Shown piece by piece: positions 4,535 to 46,373 of a stretch of DNA of 64,000 nt. Below the pieces are notes generated by a model, which was not told the origin of the DNA, made no database searches, and was given only the letters and a program-made list of their open reading frames with translations. The stretch's first letter is position 1. Each line of letters opens with the position of its first letter. The DNA is taken from the NCBI GenBank assembly GCA_965247455.1, contig CBDFHE010000017.1, positions 3,048 through 67,047 of the forward strand. The letters run 5' to 3'. The position numbers and the translations under genes are program-made. This stretch comes from Candidatus Acidiferrales bacterium (GTDB lineage Bacteria > Acidobacteriota > Terriglobia > Acidiferrales > 2-02-FULL-67-57).

Positions 4535-5921
4535 TGTAGCTGCAAAGTGAGAATGTCCTATTTGCGCAAAGTAGGAATGTCCTCTTTCATCAGGGCCAGG
4601 AGGGACGATGAGAGAGGAGCGAATCGAATTGAGCCAACGGGAGCAGGATCGGTTGAAGGTACTCCACCAAGTCGAGCAGGGCTATCTGACCCAGGTGGAA
4701 GCGGGCCGGCGGGTGCAGGTGAGCGTACGCCACCTGCGGCGTCTGCTGAGACGGGTGCGGGCGGAGGGGGACAGGGGCGTAGTGCATCGGCTGCGGGGGC
4801 GGCCCTCGAACCGGAAGATTCCAGCGGCCCTCCAGGGGCGCATCCTGGCCCAGGTGCGGCGGCGCTACGCCGACTTTGGGCCCACGCTGGCCAGCGAGCA
4901 CCTGGCGCGAGATGGGTGGCAGGTCAGCCGGGAGACGCTGCGGCAGTGGATGACCGCCGCCGGGCTGTGGCGGTCGCGCCGGCAGCGGAGGCCGGCGGTG
5001 CACGTCTGGCGAGAGCGGCGGGCCGCCTTCGGCGAGTTGGTGATGATGGACAGCTCGCCCTATCGCTGGTTGGAGCGGCGCGGACCTCCCGTGCAGTTGA
5101 TCGCGCTGATCGACGACGCTACCAGCCGGGTCTGGGGCCGCTTCGCCGCCCAGGACTCGACCGAGGAAAACCTGCGCACCCTGGCAGGCTGGCTCCGGCG
5201 CTGGGGACGGCCGCGGGCACTCTATACCGACAAAAGCAGCCTGTTCCGCACCACCCGCTCGGCCCGGCTCGACGAGCAGCTCGGCGGTCAGCCGGCCCGC
5301 ACCCAGATCGGGCGGGCCCTGCAGGAGTTGGGGATCGAGTGGATTCCCGCCCACAGCCCCCAGGCCAAGGGGCGCATCGAGAGACTATTCGGCACCTTGC
5401 AGGACCGCCTGGTCAAGGAGATGCGCCTGGCCGGGGTGCACACGGTGGAGCAGGCCAACCGCTTCCTGGCAGCAGTCTTCCTGCCTTTCTGGGAGCAGCG
5501 CTTCACCGTCGCTCCGCGCCAGCCGCACGATGCCCACCGCCCGCTGGGAGGCACCCAGCGGCTGGAGTCAATCCTGAGCGTGCGCGAACCGCGCCGGGTG
5601 GCAGGCGACTACACCGTGCGCTGGCAGGGCCAGCGCTGGGCGATCCCGCGCGCCCAGGTGCGAGCGGGGTTGCGGGGGGCGCGGGTGGAGGTCGAACGGC
5701 GGCTCGACGGCAGCCGCTGGGTCCGCTTCCGCGGCTCTTATCTCAGCCTGCGGCCCTGCCCGAGCCCGCCGCCCGCGCCCGCAACCCCCTTCGGCCTACG
5801 GCCTACGGGGCTTGCGGGCCCAAGGAAAGGCAAACGAAAGTACATTCCCCCTCCCGATCACCCTTGGAGGAGGACATTTCTATCTGGCAAAAAACCGGGA
5901 CATTTCTACTTTGCGTTGACA
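4535..5921 (+). mobile_element. IS1202-family (formerly ISNCY) insertion sequence
   Basis: Ends TGTAGCTGCAAAGTGAGAATGTCC / GGACATTTCTACTTTGCGTTGACA; subterminal repeated boxes; 15-bp TSD CGGGGAGATTTTGTT (4520-4534, 5922-5936). Confidence 0.88.
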
Positions 5922-5981
5922 CGGGGAGATTTTGTTGAGAGCAGAAAAAGACCCGTCCGAAAACAGAGAAAAAAAGGATAG
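4608..5981 (+). CDS. DDE transposase (IS1202/ISNCY type)
   Basis: N-terminal HTH, motifs MMDSSPY, IDDAT, LYTDK, SPQAKGRIERLF; the frame runs through the right end. Confidence 0.92.
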   Translation: MREERIELSQREQDRLKVLHQVEQGYLTQVEAGRRVQVSVRHLRRLLRRVRAEGDRGVVHRLRGRPSNRKIPAALQGRILAQVRRRYADFGPTLASEHLARDGWQVSRETLRQWMTAAGLWRSRRQRRPAVHVWRERRAAFGELVMMDSSPYRWLERRGPPVQLIALIDDATSRVWGRFAAQDSTEENLRTLAGWLRRWGRPRALYTDKSSLFRTTRSARLDEQLGGQPARTQIGRALQELGIEWIPAHSPQAKGRIERLFGTLQDRLVKEMRLAGVHTVEQANRFLAAVFLPFWEQRFTVAPRQPHDAHRPLGGTQRLESILSVREPRRVAGDYTVRWQGQRWAIPRAQVRAGLRGARVEVERRLDGSRWVRFRGSYLSLRPCPSPPPAPATPFGLRPTGLAGPRKGKRKYIPPPDHPWRRTFLSGKKPGHFYFALTRGDFVESRKRPVRKQRKKG

Positions 5982-29957: not shown

Positions 29958-30072
29958 CCTGCCCTCCCAGTGGCTGGCACTGGTGTAACAGGAAAGCCGC
30001 CGAGCGTCAACCGCGAAACGCGGCGTTACGATTCCAGCAAATTGAACGACGCTCTCGCCGCTGGGGCAAGAC

Positions 30073-30837
30073 TCAATGAGCGACCACGAAGTCTTGCCGG
30101 GCCCAGCCGAAGTTGGCGTTGGCGGGGTCCATGGCCAGCACCATCAACTCGACCACGCCCCCGCCGGAAGGCACAAGCTCGCCGGCGAAAGCGAGCGTGG
30201 TTTCCGCTATGACGTCGCCGTCGTGCAGCAGCCGCGCCACGACCTGAATCTTGTCGGCGTCCCAGAGCCCACCGGGCTCGGTGGGGCACCCTCAAGCCAT
30301 GGTGACTTTGACCCGCACCGGCAAGGGCTGGCCCACGGCGGGGCGGACGTCGGAAGCGGGCGCGAGCAGCGCGACGATGAAGCCGTGAATCTCCAGCAGC
30401 ACGCCCTCGCCCAGCAGGTGCTGCCCCGGAACCAGCAGCAGGGTCTTAGAAGCGCGCTGGGTGGCCTGCGGGTTGCCCAGCGGGCCTTCAGCAGTAATCT
30501 CAACTACGGTGGGCCGCGCGAGTTGGAGCGTGGCCAGGAAGCCGGCGGTGCCGGGCGTGTCGTAAACCGTGGCGCCCCGCGCGCGGGGCTTGACCATGAT
30601 CAACTCGGTATTGCCGCTTCTCCCCTTCTGCACACCCTGAGCGAGAACCGTGCCGGTAGCGACCTCCCGGATGGTGATGCGGGCGCCGCCGACTGGGTCT
30701 TGAATGACTTTGGCGTCGCGGGAGACAGCCCGAACCATGACTTTGGTGAGGATTGCTTGCGCAGCGGCAGGGAGCCCGCCGGCAGCCACGCCGATCGCCA
30801 AAGCCGTCGCCAATACGAATCTGCTTTTCTGCATCAT
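30073..30837 (-). CDS. Probable secreted selenoprotein with U-G-C motif (254 aa, Sec182)
   Basis: Signal peptide; VKVTMA-TGA(30292-30294)-GCPTEPGGLWDAD...AMDPANANFGWARQDFVVAH-TGA(30073); stem-loop right after the UGA. Confidence 0.78.
30256..30291 (-). promoter_or_regulatory. Candidate bacterial SECIS element
   Basis: Upper stem GAGCCC/GGGCTC with loop GGU starting 18 nt after UGA; lower stem CCCA/UGGG plus further pairs. Confidence 0.7.
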
Positions 30838-31072
30838 TGCACCTCTCCATCTCATGTTAGAACTTGCGTACCAAGTTCCAGCGAAGGCGTCAAGAAGGTT
30901 TTTCCGTTGGCTCCCATGTGCCCAAGCAGTTGATTGGTTGCGGAGGTCGTCCGAGAGCTGTATCGAGTTTGTCTGTTCTGGTCGGTTGCAGCTTGCGCGG
31001 ACACGCCGCGAAGGGTTAGACTGCCTCCCCTCGGTTGATCCCGCAAAGTGCACTCAAGAGGAGGGCAATCCT

Positions 31073-31603
31073 ATGGCAGCGGTGAACCCAGTACCGAAAG
31101 AGAAAGCGGCAGCGGAAGTGCAGGACCTTTATAACGGAATGACGAAGAAGTTCGGGCGCATGCCCAACATCTTCGCGGTGATGGCGCACCGCCCGGCCGT
31201 GCTGAAGAATTTTGTGCCGTTCTACGTCGCAACGGTGGGCGAGGGAACAATTGAACCCAAGTACAAGGAGCTTGCCTACCTGAAGACTGCACTGCTGAAC
31301 GGCTGCGAGTATTGAACCCGCGCGCACACTGCTTCGGCGAAGCAGGCAGGGGTTACGGAAGAACAAATCAAGGCAATGCAGTTTTACCAGCGCAGCCCGT
31401 TGTTCGACGAGAAAGAGAAAGCCACGCTGCTCTACGCAGAGCGCGTAACCCGGGGAGCCGCCGGCTTGCGCGAGCGCGCGCTGGAGGAGTTGAAATACTT
31501 TTACCCCGAAGACCAGATTGTGGAACTGACGCTGGTGATCTGCGCGGCCAATTTCACCAACCGATTCAACGACGCGCTGCAGGTGGAACCCGACCTGGGC
31601 TGA
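31073..31603 (+). CDS. AhpD/CMD-family peroxidase-related selenoprotein (CxxU, 176 aa, Sec81)
   Basis: RBS GAGGAGG; ...KELAYLKTALLNGCEY-TGA(31313-31315)-TRAH...FDEKEKATLLYAERVT...QIVELTLVICAANFTNRFNDAL in one frame. Confidence 0.88.
31316..31354 (+). promoter_or_regulatory. Candidate bacterial SECIS element
   Basis: Perfect 7-bp stem CTGCTTC/GAAGCAG with loop GGC starting 20 nt after UGA; basal pairing AACCC/GGGTT. Confidence 0.75.
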
Positions 31604-31666
31604 AGCGAGGGCGCGCCGCTCCTGGTTGGGTGAGGCAGGTGCGCCTGCCCCTGGAGTTGGCGACGG

Positions 31667-32959
31667 TCAGCAGGCCAACTGGTCCCGGCGGAGCTCGAAA
31701 CCGTCCAGCTTGCCGAGAACGGCAGCGGCCACCAACTGCGGCTGGAAGAAGTCGCGCGCGGCCTGCTGGATTTCTTCCGCGGTCACGGCTTCGACCCGGG
31801 CGAGGATCTCCTCCGGGTCGTACACCCGCCCGAAATAAATCTGCTGCCGAGCCAGGCTGCCCATACGGGCTGAAGTGGACTCCAGCGAGAGCATCAATCC
31901 ACCCTTGAGGTTGTCTTTGGCCCGCCGCAGCTCGTCCGCCGGCACCGGCTCGCGCTTCAACAGACTGAACTCTTCCAGGATCAAGCGTAGCACCTGCTGG
32001 ACGCTTTCGTGCCCGGTGCCGGCCGAAACCGACAGGCAGCCGGTGTCGCGGTAAGCGCTGGCGTCGGCAAAAATGGAATACACCAGGCCGCGCTGCTCCC
32101 GCACTTTCTGGAACAGCCGGGAACTCATTCCGCCACCCAGGATGAGGCTCAGCAAACTGACAATATAGCGCCGCTGGTCCGGGAGCGGGGAACAGGGCAC
32201 GCCCAGGCAGAGTTGGACTTGTTCCAACTCCGGCTTGGGGCTCGTCACCAGGGCCGCGTGGGCGCGCGGCCGGTGATCATTCGCCTCCGGTCCGCCCTCG
32301 CGACTGGGTTCGAGCCGGTTGAACTGTGCCGCCACCAGCTCGACAAAGCGCTCATGGTGCAAGCGGCCGGCGGCGGTGATCAGCATGCGCTCGGGACAGT
32401 ACCAGCGCTGGAAAAAGTTGCGCACCGACCGGCTGTCGAACTGGAGCACACTTTCTTTGGTGCCCAGAATGGGCCGCCCGATGGAGTGGTGAGGCCAGAA
32501 GTTTTGCGTGAAGGTTTCCTGGACCAGGTATTCCGGGTTGTCTTGCTCCATCTTGATTTCTTCCAGGATGACGCCCTGCTCTTTGCGCAGGTCCTCTTCC
32601 CGGAACAACGGCTCCAGCACCAAGTCAGCCAGGACGTCCAGGGCTCGCGGCAGGTGCTCATCCATCACCTTGGCATTGAAGCAAATGATCTCCTTGGAGG
32701 TGAAGGCGTCCATGTGCCCACCCACCGAGTCCAGCTCCATGGCGATCTGCTCGGCGCTGCGGCTGGTGGTGCCCTTGAAGACAGTGTGCTCGATGAAGTG
32801 GCTGATCCCGTTCACTTCCGCGGGCTCGGCCCGCGAGCCGCTCTTCACCCAAATGCCCAACGCCACCGAGCGCACGTGCGGCATCTGCTCGGTCAGAATC
32901 GTCAGCCCGTTGGCGAGCGTCTCTTGGCGCACACCTCGAACGTCGGTGGACACAATCAC
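31667..32959 (-). CDS. M16 family zinc peptidase
   Basis: GISHFIEHTVFKGT (HxxEH), DAFTSKE, VILEEIKM, GGGMSSRLFQKVRE. Confidence 0.93.
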   Translation of the reverse strand: MIVSTDVRGVRQETLANGLTILTEQMPHVRSVALGIWVKSGSRAEPAEVNGISHFIEHTVFKGTTSRSAEQIAMELDSVGGHMDAFTSKEIICFNAKVMDEHLPRALDVLADLVLEPLFREEDLRKEQGVILEEIKMEQDNPEYLVQETFTQNFWPHHSIGRPILGTKESVLQFDSRSVRNFFQRWYCPERMLITAAGRLHHERFVELVAAQFNRLEPSREGGPEANDHRPRAHAALVTSPKPELEQVQLCLGVPCSPLPDQRRYIVSLLSLILGGGMSSRLFQKVREQRGLVYSIFADASAYRDTGCLSVSAGTGHESVQQVLRLILEEFSLLKREPVPADELRRAKDNLKGGLMLSLESTSARMGSLARQQIYFGRVYDPEEILARVEAVTAEEIQQAARDFFQPQLVAAAVLGKLDGFELRRDQLAC

Positions 32960-44703: not shown

Positions 44704-46373
44704 CCCGGATTTCCGATTTGGCTGTGGTACCGTATCGCCAGGACCAGTCGCTGCGCCTTGAGTTTTGGGGCTCCGACGTAAGGAACCACACTACGGAGGG
44801 TGACACCCGGTGGGTGAATTACAACACGAGCCATTCCAGTTCGCGTTCAACGGCTTCTTGAAAGTCGCGTTCCAGGGATCGCGCGTCACTTCTGACGCTG
44901 GCCTCATTCTGGTGCGCGAGTTGGATGAACGTCTGGGGCTGGAGACACTCATCGCCGAGCACCTGAGCGATTCCCGACAGGGGATGAACACCCAGTTCAG
45001 CGTGGTGGATCTCCTGCGGCAGTCGGTCTACAGTCGCCTCGCGGGCTACGAAGATCTCAACGACGCGGGGCGCGTGTCGGCAGACCCAACATTTCGTCTC
45101 ATCGGGTCGCCAAAGCGCTGGGACCGGGGTGCGGCGCTGACATCGACGCTGCATTGGTTCGAGACAGAGCTGCTGACCCACGAGGAGAATCTCGTCGGGT
45201 TGAGGGCCGTGAACCGGGAGGTGCTTGCACAGGCCGAGATGGCGACGCGCGCCGACCGGATCGTGCTCGACATGGATTCGAGCGAGAGCCCGGTGCATGG
45301 GGCGCAGGAAGGGAGCGCCTATAACGGGCACTTCGAGTCCGTCTGCTACCACCCGCTGTTTCTGTTCACCGAGCATGGGGACTGCCTCGCCGCCACGCTG
45401 CGGCCAGGCAACGTGCATAGCGCCGACGACTGGGACGACCTGCTCGTACCGGAGATTGACCGGCAGCAGGTGGAGGGCAAGCGCGTAGCGTTCCGCGCAG
45501 ACGCCGCGTTCGCGAAGCCCGAGATCTACGACGCGCTCGAGCAGCGCGACGTGGACTATGCCATTCGCATGCCGGCGAACAAGAGCTTGGAGCTGGAAAT
45601 CGAAGACATCCTCTTTCGTCCGCCGGGACGGCCGAGCTGCAAGCCCTTGGTGCGCTACCAGAGTTTCCGCTATCAGGCCAAGAGCTGGACCACGCCCAGA
45701 CGGATCGTCGCCAAGGTGGAGCACCACCAAGGTGAGCTGTTCCCTCGCGTCGGCTTCATCGTGACCAACACGGCCCTCCCGAGCCGCTCGGTCGTGCGGT
45801 TTTACAACAAGCGCGGTACGGCGGAGCAATGGATCAAGGAAGGCAAGCAGGCCACCCACTGGACGCGGCTGTCGTGCCATCGTTTCCGGGCGAACGAGGT
45901 GCGCCTGCAACTGAGCGTCCTGGCCTACAATCTGGGCAACTTGTGGCGCAGACTGGTCCTTCCGCTGCGGGTCAAGCGCTGGTCGCTCACGAGTCTCCAG
46001 CAGCGACTGGTGAAAACTGGGGGCCGGCTGGTGAAGCATGCGCGGTACTACTGGCTTCTGCTGGCGGAAGGGCATCTCACGCGGCGGCTGTTCGGCGACA
46101 TGCTGCGGAGGATCTGGGCGCTACCCGTGCCGGCAGGCTGACGCGCGGCCTGAAGTGCAACGAAGCCCGCCCGGCGATGACACGGGGCACACGTGTGGAG
46201 CGGTGTCTGAGAAATGCCCGAAAAGCAGGGGTTCCAGTCGGTCGCACGTCGGCGCGGGCTCAGATGAAGGCCTTTGAAGCTGAGCGATTGTGCGACGATC
46301 GAAGTTTTTGTGCGATCGGCGGCGATCGGGTGTATAAACGTGCCATCAGGGGCAGGCAAAACGGAAATCCCGG
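44704..46373 (+). mobile_element. IS1380-family insertion sequence
   Basis: 17-bp TIR CC(C/G)GGATTTCCG(A/T)TTTG; 5-bp TSD ATTAA (44699-44703, 46374-46378). Confidence 0.92.
44810..46141 (+). CDS. IS1380-family DDE transposase
   Basis: TSDAGL, GYEDLND, LDMDSS, YNGHF, FRADAAF, YNKRGTAEQWIKEGK. Confidence 0.95.
   Translation: MGELQHEPFQFAFNGFLKVAFQGSRVTSDAGLILVRELDERLGLETLIAEHLSDSRQGMNTQFSVVDLLRQSVYSRLAGYEDLNDAGRVSADPTFRLIGSPKRWDRGAALTSTLHWFETELLTHEENLVGLRAVNREVLAQAEMATRADRIVLDMDSSESPVHGAQEGSAYNGHFESVCYHPLFLFTEHGDCLAATLRPGNVHSADDWDDLLVPEIDRQQVEGKRVAFRADAAFAKPEIYDALEQRDVDYAIRMPANKSLELEIEDILFRPPGRPSCKPLVRYQSFRYQAKSWTTPRRIVAKVEHHQGELFPRVGFIVTNTALPSRSVVRFYNKRGTAEQWIKEGKQATHWTRLSCHRFRANEVRLQLSVLAYNLGNLWRRLVLPLRVKRWSLTSLQQRLVKTGGRLVKHARYYWLLLAEGHLTRRLFGDMLRRIWALPVPAG

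What the first reader, a model, noticed from the sequence alone, without database searches (positions are those of the whole stretch)
31073..31603. AhpD/CMD-family protein with CxxU split by gene callers
Two in-frame ORFs (31073-31315 and 31376-31603) form one AhpD-like protein if UGA is read as Sec at the second position of the family CxxC-x2-H motif (CEY-U-TRAH). A perfect 7-bp hairpin with loop GGC lies 20 nt downstream. AhpD-like selenoproteins are a known class, but this one would be missed or called a pseudogene.
Basis: partly seen in the sequence, partly recalled or inferred. Interest (0 to 1): 0.68.

Follow-up and report, generated by a model that had tools for sequence, protein, structure and literature searches.

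The report
AhpD-like selenoprotein split by gene callers
The two short ORFs are one 176-residue AhpD-like redox enzyme whose in-frame UGA most probably encodes selenocysteine; this protein class has been known since 2005, so the result is mainly an annotation fix, plus a second, unclassified selenoprotein gene next door.

Summary
Confirmed. ATG 31073 to stop 31603 is one frame of 176 codons, interrupted only by TGA 31313-31315. The Pfam CMD domain (E 2.9e-19) runs across that TGA.

Evidence that the UGA is read as selenocysteine:
- Full-length homologues of 176-177 aa carry Cys at that column.
- Of 83 related loci, 49 carry TGA and 34 carry TGC or TGT.
- All 49 TGA genes have the same 7-bp hairpin, starting 13-14 nt after the UGA, with loop G(G/U)C, 99.4% pairing and three compensatory pairs.
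- The hairpin codons show no synonymous variation in TGA genes but vary freely in Cys genes.
- dN/dS is 0.17 on both sides of the TGA.
- TGA ends 22 of 55 window genes, so the genetic code is standard.
- DNA contigs from four public runs and metatranscriptome contigs keep the TGA.

Sec81 sits where the exposed attacking Cys of AhpD sits, in the motif C78-E-Y-U81-T-R-A-H85 with E66.

AhpD-like CxxU selenoproteins (COG2128) have been known since 2005, so this is a new member of a known kind. Public gene calls do split it into 80 + 75 aa. No sel genes lie in the 64-kb window.

The divergent neighbour (30073-30837, minus strand) is a second selenoprotein. It has a U-G-C motif, its own conserved hairpin, and no Pfam or NCBIfam family.

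The parts
31073..31603 (+). Complete coding sequence of the AhpD-like (CMD family) selenoprotein: 176 codons including Sec81, stop TGA 31601-31603.
   Evidence: One frame. Pfam CMD 69.3 bits over residues 41-123, spanning the TGA. Full-length 176-177 aa homologues at 63-76% identity. AF2 model pLDDT 92.1 with an AhpD-like fold.
31060..31065 (+). Shine-Dalgarno-like GGAGGG, 7-8 nt before ATG 31073.
   Evidence: Read directly from the sequence. Homologues start at the same MA(A/V)VNP.
31304..31327 (+). Active-site motif C78-E79-Y80-U81-T82-R83-A84-H85 (CxxU-x3-H).
   Evidence: C78, Y80 and H85 are invariant in alignment A1, as is E66 upstream. They align with the PA0269 proton-relay residues Cys48, Tyr50, Cys51 and His55, and E66 with Glu36 (PMC3141380).
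31313..31315 (+). In-frame UGA read as selenocysteine (Sec81).
   Evidence: The column is TGA in 49 and TGC/TGT in 34 of 83 related loci. TGA is present in contigs of 4 DNA runs and 4 RNA runs.
31329..31345 (+). SECIS-type hairpin: stem 31329-31335 / 31339-31345 (7 bp), apical loop GGC 31336-31338.
   Evidence: Present at the same offset in all 49 TGA genes. 99.4% of cells are paired and 3 of 7 pairs show compensatory double changes. Codons GCT-TCG-GCG/TCG-AAG are invariant in TGA genes and variable in Cys genes.
30073..30837 (-). Divergent neighbour: a second candidate selenoprotein. It is a secreted tandem beta-sandwich protein of 254 aa with the motif U-G-C. Sec codon 30292-30294; stop 30073-30075.
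   Evidence: The frame stays open, with GC3 0.88, for 72 codons after the TGA. 260-aa homologues have C-G-C at the site. The TGA is kept in L004, L084-L087 and in diverged metagenome lineages L092-L108. No Pfam or NCBIfam hit.
30265..30279 (-). SECIS-type hairpin of the neighbour gene: GAGCCC-GGU-GGGCUC, starting 12 nt after its UGA.
   Evidence: Sequence. Fold energy -23.7 kcal/mol and conserved in relatives. GAG CCC GGN GGG CTC is invariant in 17 metagenome contigs even though the search pattern allowed synonymous change. Absent from the Cys forms.

Best explanation
Positions 31073-31603 encode a single 176-residue AhpD-like (carboxymuconolactone-decarboxylase fold, COG2128/YciW-type) thiol/selenol oxidoreductase. 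UGA 31313-31315 is recoded to selenocysteine.

Proposed mechanism:
1. The ribosome reaches the UGA while the 7-bp hairpin (31329-31345, small G-containing apical loop), 13 nt downstream, is still folded.
2. A SelB-type elongation factor carrying Sec-tRNA(Sec) binds this SECIS element and delivers Sec instead of release.
3. Translation continues through the remaining 95 codons.
4. In the folded protein, Sec81 takes the place of the second, solvent-exposed Cys of the AhpD C-x-x-C-x3-H motif. It sits beside C78, Y80 and H85, with E66 from the preceding helix.
5. Sec81 would act as the attacking nucleophile on an oxidised partner (a peroxiredoxin, a disulfide or a hydroperoxide). C78 then resolves the selenenylsulfide.

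Shown here: one gene, the Cys/TGA column, the conserved and covarying hairpin restricted to TGA genes, purifying selection on both halves, transcription across the TGA, the AhpD-like fold, and the relay residues.
Inferred: SelB/tRNA(Sec) dependence, actual selenium incorporation, and the substrate.
For: - One gene: Pfam CMD spans the TGA. TIGR00778 ahpD_dom scores 42.1 against a cutoff of 27.8. 803 homologues, the best 120 covering 98-100% of the query.
- Sec/Cys column: 30 of 34 aligned proteins have C. Four nearest relatives show 'W', which is TGA translated under another code. At DNA level there are 49 TGA, 31 TGC and 3 TGT.
- SECIS: the same hairpin and offset in all TGA genes. The RNAalifold consensus is this stem only; pairs 23-39, 24-38 and 27-35 show 12, 4 and 1 double changes. 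99.4% of cells are paired, against 25-45% when the partners are slid.
- Synonymous sites: entropy is 0-0.14 bit at codons +6 to +9 in TGA genes, against 0.95-1.63 bit in Cys genes.
- Translation of the downstream half: dN/dS is 0.176 upstream and 0.173 downstream of the TGA.
- Standard code: stop codons in window genes are TAG 23, TGA 22, TAA 10.
- Not a sequencing error: 4 DNA runs and 4 RNA runs keep the TGA, and RNA contigs span it.
- Fold and site: pLDDT 92.1. TM 0.80-0.89 to D. radiodurans AhpD 6k40, S. pneumoniae AhpD 6e8l and Bmp8 6ohi. The relay residues match PA0269. The second Cys of MtbAhpD is the exposed residue that attacks AhpC (PMC6626918).
- A second TGA/Cys gene with its own hairpin lies 236 nt away.
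Against: - No selA, selB, selD or tRNA-Sec lies in the 64-kb window or in the flanks of 45 related loci, so decoding capacity is inferred, not seen.
- The hairpin alone is not beyond chance in this GC-rich DNA.
- A proposed lower stem is not supported (59.8% paired).
- The protein falls below the curated cut-offs of TIGR01926 (65 < 81.8) and NF053654 (101.9 < 310).
- No peroxiredoxin partner gene lies beside it, and no neighbour is conserved across the family, so the substrate is unknown.
- There is no protein-level evidence of selenium.
Confidence: 0.9

Rival explanations
1. The UGA is read through, but not as selenocysteine. An opal-suppressing non-canonical tRNA would insert Cys or Ser, possibly still using the hairpin and a SelB-like factor. 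Candidates are the allo-tRNAs reported in Acidobacteria or a selC*-type tRNA-Cys(UCA).
For: Such tRNAs exist. Allo-tRNAs are frequent on acidobacterial contigs, and selC* tRNA-Cys(UCA) decodes a Sec UGA as Cys in a test system (PMC5389517). The column tolerates Cys. No tRNA-Sec or sel genes were seen in the window.
Against: The TGA-plus-hairpin arrangement is shared by 49 loci labelled Acidobacteriota, Methylomirabilota/Rokubacteria and Gemmatimonadota. That breadth fits the universal bacterial Sec system better than lineage-specific suppressors. selC* was reported in anaerobic Firmicutes, Thermodesulfobacteria, Nitrospirae and Proteobacteria, not in Acidobacteria. Keeping a costly UGA and hairpin merely to insert Cys, when TGC would do, is hard to explain. 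Methylomirabilota MAGs are reported to be selenoprotein-rich (PMC13188914).
Confidence: 0.05
2. The gene is a pseudogene or a pair of independent small ORFs (80 aa and 75 aa). The TGA is then a true stop and the hairpin is incidental.
For: This is how public gene callers treat it. The second ORF has its own ATG at 31376. Hairpins of this size occur by chance after about 2% of TGAs.
Against: - The 20 codons between the TGA and ATG 31376 (TRAHTASAKQAGVTEEQIKA) include the invariant A84 and H85 and the nearly invariant R83, and belong to the CMD domain.
- The TGA is conserved at the same column in 49 loci across phyla.
- Purifying selection is equal on both halves.
- The hairpin shows compensatory changes and frozen synonymous sites only in TGA genes.
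Confidence: 0.02
3. The TGA is an assembly or sequencing error, RNA editing, or an organism-wide reassignment of TGA (code 4 or 25), as implied by the 'W' in some database translations.
For: Database proteins P0001, P0003, P0005 and P0008 show W at the column.
Against: - The same TGA is in contigs of 4 independent DNA runs and in RNA contigs of 4 metatranscriptomes, with no variant at 31313-31315.
- TGA terminates 22 of 55 genes in the window, including this one.
- Homologues have Cys, not Trp or Gly, at the column.
- The 'W' proteins contain TGA in their DNA.
Confidence: 0.01

Closest known systems
AhpD-like selenoprotein family (COG2128/YciW, TIGR01926-type; 'AhpD-like 1' of the Sargasso Sea and GOS selenoproteomes)
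   Same: CMD/AhpD fold. Sec lies at the second position of the C-x-x-C motif (CxxU). Cys homologues are widespread. A SECIS hairpin with a small G-containing apical loop lies just after the UGA (PMC1088965; PMC2398784; PMC9312934; PMC13188914).
   Different: Those families were described from marine metagenomes. This subfamily comes from Acidobacteriota, Methylomirabilota and Gemmatimonadota MAGs. It scores 65 bits on TIGR01926, below the 81.8 cutoff. In the 83 loci sampled, Sec is the majority state and apparently the ancestral one.
NF053654 GroundWater_YciW, 'YciW-related (seleno)protein' (NCBIfam)
   Same: Best NCBIfam hit. The alignment is end to end (residues 1-171 to profile positions 1-171 of 179), and the family is also a (seleno)protein family.
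   Different: 101.9 bits against a cutoff of 310, so it is a relative and not a member.
PA0269, the AhpD-like protein of Pseudomonas aeruginosa (PDB 2O4D, 2IJC, 7XW1)
   Same: Best solved relative by sequence (E 4e-25, about 32% identity over the core). It has the same helix-turn-helix catalytic motif and the relay Glu36, Cys48, Tyr50, Cys51, His55, equivalent to E66, C78, Y80, U81, H85 here. It has weak peroxidase activity.
   Different: It has Cys, not Sec. It is 145 aa and lacks the N-terminal 40 residues present here.
Mycobacterium tuberculosis AhpD (PDB 1GU9; TIGR00777)
   Same: C-x-x-C-x3-H chemistry. The second Cys (Cys133) is the exposed residue that forms the mixed disulfide with AhpC Cys61 (PMC6626918). 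That position is Sec here.
   Different: Different chain topology and only a remote match (Foldseek E 2.0, TM 0.36; TIGR00777 17 bits against 191.95). No ahpC gene lies beside the window gene.
Bmp8 debrominase (PDB 6OHI, 6OHJ)
   Same: Top Foldseek hit (TM 0.80-0.82), full-length alignment, Cys-based catalysis in the same fold.
   Different: Only 23% identity. Nothing here points to halogenated substrates.
Bacterial SECIS elements (consensus: stem-loop just after the UGA with a small apical loop containing G)
   Same: Position directly after the UGA. A 7-bp stem, a 3-nt loop starting with an invariant G, and conservation restricted to UGA-bearing genes (consensus description in PMC1088965).
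   Different: No SelB-binding test was done. No Rfam model matches. An extended lower stem is not conserved.

Membership tests
Bacterial selenoprotein gene (Sec-decoded UGA) | In-frame UGA aligned with Cys in homologues (Sec/Cys pair) | tested here: met
   Column 81 is C in 30 of 34 aligned proteins. At DNA level there are 49 TGA, 31 TGC and 3 TGT.
Bacterial selenoprotein gene (Sec-decoded UGA) | SECIS stem-loop immediately downstream of the UGA, with a small apical loop containing G | tested here: met
   7-bp stem 13 nt after the UGA, loop G(G/U)C, in all 49 TGA genes. 99.4% paired, with 3 compensatory pairs. Synonymous sites are frozen only in TGA genes.
Bacterial selenoprotein gene (Sec-decoded UGA) | The sequence downstream of the UGA is translated (conserved as protein) | tested here: met
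   dN/dS is 0.173 downstream against 0.176 upstream. The Pfam domain and the AF2 fold continue through the TGA.
Bacterial selenoprotein gene (Sec-decoded UGA) | Sec machinery (selA, selB, selC, selD) in the same genome | not testable with these tools
   Only 64 kb is available. No tRNA, no Rfam hit, and no SelA, SelB or SelD among all ORFs of 300 aa or more. Indirect support comes from a second TGA/Cys gene with a hairpin at 30073-30837.
Bacterial selenoprotein gene (Sec-decoded UGA) | Selenium demonstrated in the protein | not testable with these tools
   Needs 75Se labelling or mass spectrometry.
CMD / AhpD-like superfamily (Pfam PF02627; TIGR00778 AhpD core domain) | Profile match above the curated cutoff | tested here: met
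   PF02627 scores 69.3 against 23. TIGR00778 scores 42.1 against 27.8.
CMD / AhpD-like superfamily (Pfam PF02627; TIGR00778 AhpD core domain) | All-helical AhpD-like fold | tested here: met
   AF2 pLDDT 92.1 and pTM 0.88, nine helices. Foldseek TM 0.80-0.89 to AhpD-like structures, 36 hits at E <= 1e-3.
CMD / AhpD-like superfamily (Pfam PF02627; TIGR00778 AhpD core domain) | Catalytic relay Glu ... C-x-x-C-x3-H | tested here: met
   E66, C78, Y80 and H85 are invariant, and U/C is at position 81. They align with PA0269 Glu36, Cys48, Tyr50, Cys51 and His55.
TIGR01926 'peroxidase-related enzyme' (model cited for the known AhpD-like CxxU selenoproteins) | Score at or above the curated cutoff of 81.8 bits | tested here: not met
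   65.0 bits, although the alignment is full length (3-173 to 2-175 of 178). JGI gives this name to many homologues.
NF053654 GroundWater_YciW (seleno)protein | Score at or above the curated cutoff of 310 bits | tested here: not met
   101.9 bits.
Canonical AhpD (TIGR00777; AhpC-reducing adaptor) | Equivalog-level profile match and an adjacent ahpC gene | tested here: not met
   TIGR00777 scores 17 against 191.95. The neighbours are an M16 peptidase, TPR proteins, an MBL-fold protein and the UGC protein, with no peroxiredoxin.

The most novel reading that the evidence does not exclude
The divergently transcribed neighbour (30073-30837, minus strand) is the first recognised member of an undescribed selenoprotein family. 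These are secreted proteins with two beta-sandwich domains and a U-G-C (Cys form C-G-C) site followed by PTEPGGLWD. The SECIS is built from the codons GAG CCC GGN GGG CTC. In this lineage it would form a two-selenoprotein redox module with the AhpD-like enzyme. Elsewhere its Cys forms sit next to SoxA/TsdA-type dihaem cytochromes, suggesting a sulfur- or selenium-carrier role.
Probability: 0.3. Interest if true: 0.55.

Novelty: new member of a known kind. Interest (0 to 1): 0.32.

Why it matters
For the given finding the value is mostly in annotation. A widespread subfamily of AhpD-like enzymes in Acidobacteriota, Methylomirabilota and Gemmatimonadota is mainly a selenoprotein family (49 of 83 sampled loci). 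Public gene calls either cut it into 80-aa and 75-aa fragments or translate the UGA as Trp. It also falls below the cut-offs of the curated selenoprotein-aware models. Selenium use by these abundant bacteria is therefore undercounted.

The data set is a clean natural experiment. Sec and Cys versions of the same enzyme occur side by side, with at least 7 inferred Sec-to-Cys switches and relic hairpins in some Cys genes. That could be used to study why Sec is kept or lost at the attacking position of a CxxC redox site.

The adjacent U-G-C protein, which has no family assignment, may be of more interest than the finding itself.

Tried and rejected
- An extended lower SECIS stem (31315-31323 with 31346-31354), suggested by RNAfold on the window. 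Only 59.8% of cells pair across 49 genes, so it was rejected.
- Rfam, at gathering thresholds on the whole window and at permissive E-values on 30000-31700. Nothing relevant; the single hit (IRES_L-myc, E 6.4) is chance.
- tRNA-Sec with ARAGORN in the window and in 45 TGA-bearing loci. None found; only Val, Asp and Arg tRNAs.
- sel genes in the window. All ORFs of 300 aa or more were run through Pfam or NCBIfam, and none is SelA, SelB or SelD.
- A conserved gene partner around the AhpD-like gene in 76 loci, using ORF clustering. No cluster is shared by more than 27 loci, and the largest clusters look like shadow ORFs or synteny within the Cys clade.
- A scan for other TGA-split genes in the window by coding signal. 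It found only the target, its neighbour, and a false positive at the secD/secF boundary.
- Promoter and terminator scan of 30700-31800. No sigma-70-like site and no relevant terminator.
- Fold search for the neighbour protein. Only generic Ig/FN3-like matches (TM <= 0.29) from a medium-confidence model.
- Pfam on 14 members of the neighbour family at E <= 5. No family.

Full report
**1. What is in the sequence**

Reading 31073-31603 on the + strand in one frame gives 176 codons, a single internal TGA (31313-31315) and a terminal TGA (31601-31603). ATG 31073 is preceded by GGAGGG at 31060-31065.

The mechanical ORF list reports 30704-31315 and 31376-31603. It is the start that homologues use (MA(A/V)VNP...). 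The two pieces are in frame, since 31376-31073 = 303.

Both halves carry the genome's coding signature: GC at codon positions 1/2/3 is 0.59/0.36/0.74 and 0.64/0.39/0.77.

The hairpin CUGCUUC-GGC-GAAGCAG occupies 31329-31345. Thirteen nt separate the UGA from the stem and 20 nt separate it from the loop. The motif is C78-E-Y-U81-T-R-A-H85, which is CxxU-x3-H rather than x2.

**2. One gene, of the AhpD/CMD kind**

With Cys substituted for the stop, Pfam CMD (PF02627) matches residues 41-123 at 69.3 bits (cutoff 23), straight across the TGA.

NCBIfam results:
- TIGR00778 (AhpD core domain): 42.1 bits against a cutoff of 27.8, so above cutoff.
- NF053654, 'YciW-related (seleno)protein': end-to-end alignment but 101.9 bits against 310, so below cutoff.
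- TIGR01926, 'peroxidase-related enzyme': end-to-end alignment but 65 bits against 81.8, so below cutoff.

A protein search found 803 homologues. The best 120 are 174-207 aa long, cover 98-100% of the query, and are 63-76% identical.

A profile of 35 of them hits solved AhpD-like structures: PA0269 (E 4e-25), Bmp8 and D. radiodurans AhpD. An AlphaFold model built on that alignment has pLDDT 92.1 and superposes on AhpD-like structures at TM 0.80-0.89.

The residues E66, C78, Y80 and H85 are invariant. They align with the PA0269 proton relay Glu36, Cys48, Tyr50, Cys51, His55 (PMC3141380). Sec81 therefore takes the place of Cys51, which is Cys133 in M. tuberculosis AhpD. That is the exposed residue that attacks AhpC, while the first Cys is partly buried (PMC6626918).

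**3. Is the TGA a Sec codon?**

(a) The column. In the protein alignment it is Cys in 30 of 34 homologues. It is 'W' in the four nearest ones. Their DNA has TGA there, so a gene caller had applied a TGA=Trp code. In 80 genome contigs plus 3 metagenome contigs, the codon is TGA in 49, TGC in 31 and TGT in 3. The TGA genes come from MAGs labelled Acidobacteriota/Terriglobia, Rokubacteria/Methylomirabilota and Gemmatimonadota.

(b) The hairpin. All TGA genes have the same hairpin at the same offset, with loop GGC or GUC.
- RNAalifold on the 49 sequences predicts exactly this 7-bp stem and nothing else.
- Three pairs show compensatory double changes: C-G to U-A in 12 sequences, C-G to U-A in 4, and U-A to C-G in 1.
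- 99.4% of cells pair, against 25-45% when the partners are slid by 1-3 columns.

(c) Synonymous sites. Codons +6 to +9 form the stem and loop.
- In TGA genes they are GCT (48 of 49), TCG (49 of 49), GCG (36 of 36 Ala codons at this position) and AAG (48 of 48).
- The same residues in Cys genes use 2-4 synonymous codons each (entropy 0.95-1.63 bit).
- Flanking codons in TGA genes vary normally. The constraint is therefore on the RNA, and only when the codon is UGA.

(d) Selection. Among TGA genes, dN/dS is 0.176 for the 60 codons before the TGA and 0.173 for the 48 codons after it. The downstream part is translated.

(e) Genetic code. TGA terminates 22 of 55 confident genes in the window, so the code is standard.

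(f) Independent sequence data. Assembled contigs from four public DNA runs cover 30000-31700 with no variant at 31313-31315. Metatranscriptome contigs from four runs in two studies cover the gene, and four of them span the unchanged TGA: 31047-31364, 31295-31614, 31236-31613 and 31281-31516.

Taken alone, the hairpin would be weak evidence. Its fold z-score is -0.14. About 2% of TGA triplets in this window have a comparable hairpin downstream by chance. The comparative data make it decisive.

**4. Evolution**

On a neighbour-joining tree of the 83 proteins, parsimony places Sec at the root, with at least 7 changes to Cys. One of these leads to a large Terriglobia clade.

Six Cys genes (L047, L050, L059, L062, L070, L073) retain a 6-bp relic of the stem. 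L050 is sister to a Sec gene. This fits recent Sec-to-Cys replacement.

The tree is only NJ with midpoint rooting, built on the 80 best hits, so the direction of change is provisional.

**5. Sec machinery and surroundings**

The window holds no tRNA and no Rfam family. Every ORF of 300 aa or more has been assigned to something else:
- PurB, an M16 peptidase, TPR proteins
- ExbB/ExbD/TonB, SecD/SecF, Tgt
- RpoD, SerS, the ATP synthase operon
- MqnE, a UbiA-type prenyltransferase, GlpX
- an acyl-CoA dehydrogenase, a CDF transporter, a histidine kinase
- two transposases

A scan for other TGA-interrupted coding frames found one more, the divergent neighbour on the minus strand:
- It has a signal peptide and about 180 residues, then TGA 30292-30294, then 72 more codons with GC3 0.88, ending at stop 30073-30075.
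- Homologues of 260 aa read ...TMA-C-GCPTEPGGLWD..., so the window protein is U-G-C.
- Twelve nt after the TGA lies the hairpin GAGCCC-GGU-GGGCUC.
- A degenerate DNA pattern that allowed synonymous change found 17 metagenome contigs from several diverged lineages. All have TGA, 78-80 conserved codons after it (two contigs run further), and invariant GAG CCC GGN GGG CTC.
- Cys forms use GAA CCG GGC GGC TTG or GAA CCC GAT GGC CTG, which form no hairpin.

Two independent Sec/Cys pairs with SECIS-like hairpins, 236 nt apart, are good indirect evidence that this organism decodes Sec.

**6. Mechanism proposed**

- Shown: a single transcribed gene; a UGA at the catalytic Cys column; a conserved, covarying hairpin placed as in bacterial SECIS elements; translation of the downstream half; an AhpD-like fold and relay.
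- Inferred from established knowledge of bacterial Sec decoding: SelB carrying Sec-tRNA(Sec) binds the hairpin and inserts Sec at the UGA.
- Inferred from AhpD chemistry (PMC3141380, PMC6626918): Sec81 is the attacking nucleophile and C78 resolves the selenenylsulfide. E66, Y80 and H85 form the proton relay.
- Unknown: the substrate. No peroxiredoxin or other conserved partner lies next to the gene.

**7. Rivals**

- Pseudogene or two small genes. Excluded by the conserved domain residues between the TGA and ATG 31376, by 49 conserved TGAs, and by equal purifying selection on both halves.
- Error, editing or code change. Excluded.
- Read-through by a non-Sec suppressor tRNA. Allo-tRNAs are known in Acidobacteria, and selC* tRNA-Cys is known elsewhere (PMC5389517). 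This cannot be excluded from sequence. It is unlikely given the cross-phylum conservation of the UGA-plus-hairpin arrangement.

**8. Comparison with what is known, and novelty**

AhpD-like proteins with CxxU (COG2128/YciW) were reported as selenoproteins in the Sargasso Sea survey, with 27 sequences (PMC1088965). 'AhpD-like 1' was the fourth most abundant family in GOS, with 299 sequences (PMC2398784). The family is listed in the 2022 and 2026 reviews and in BSepDB. NCBIfam has several AhpD-related (seleno)protein models.

The finding is therefore a new member, and a distinct soil/sediment subfamily, of a known kind.

Gene calls on close relatives (NCBI GCA_964498345.1 and Logan assemblies) give 80-aa and 75-aa fragments.

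**9. Verdict**

Confidence that this is a Sec-decoded AhpD-like oxidoreductase is about 0.9. Interest is modest (0.32) because the class is well known. The unassigned U-G-C neighbour is the more novel lead.

Noticed in passing
window 30073-30837 (minus strand); Sec codon 30292-30294; hairpin 30265-30279: A second selenoprotein candidate is transcribed divergently from the AhpD-like gene. It is a secreted protein with two beta-sandwich domains and a U-G-C site (C-G-C in 260-aa homologues). It has a conserved hairpin GAGCCC-GGN-GGGCUC 12 nt after the UGA. Gene callers split it into 181 + 63-65 aa. It has no Pfam or NCBIfam family.
   Followed up: partly
loci L088-L091 (Cys homologues of the neighbour protein): In three independent contigs the C-G-C form lies divergently next to a SoxA/TsdA-type dihaem cytochrome c gene (PF21342, PF00034, PF13442), not next to an AhpD-like gene. 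This hints at a role in sulfur-compound oxidation. The adjacency to the AhpD-like gene is limited to the window's lineage.
   Followed up: no
proteins P0001, P0003, P0005, P0008; loci L001-L003: Public JGI protein predictions of the nearest relatives carry Trp at the Sec column, because TGA was translated under an alternative code on short contigs. Sec is thus hidden as 'W' in the protein database.
   Followed up: yes
loci L047, L050, L059, L062, L070, L073: Six Cys-form genes still carry a 6-bp relic of the SECIS stem (CGCTTC-NNN-GAAGCG). This is consistent with recent Sec-to-Cys conversion. L050 is sister to a Sec gene on the tree.
   Followed up: partly
window 30176 (within the post-UGA part of the neighbour gene): All four public DNA runs, and L004 and L084-L087, have 21 extra in-frame nucleotides (7 codons) here relative to the window. 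The window's copy has a frame-preserving deletion in the region translated after the UGA.
   Followed up: no
window 4608-5978 (+) and 44810-46138 (+): There are two transposase genes, of the ISNCY family (390 bits) and the IS1380 family (363 bits). They lie in an otherwise housekeeping region that includes rpoD, serS, the atp operon and secDF.
   Followed up: no
loci L042, L060, L078: Contigs carrying Terriglobia-type Cys forms of the gene are filed under MAGs labelled Saccharimonadales, Micrarchaeota and Verrucomicrobiia. These are probably binning contamination.
   Followed up: no
window 31419: Metatranscriptome contigs of two runs (X25, X27) read C instead of A. This would change Lys116, which is otherwise invariant in the 35-sequence alignment, to Thr. 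Depth is low (about 3), so the meaning is unclear.
   Followed up: no
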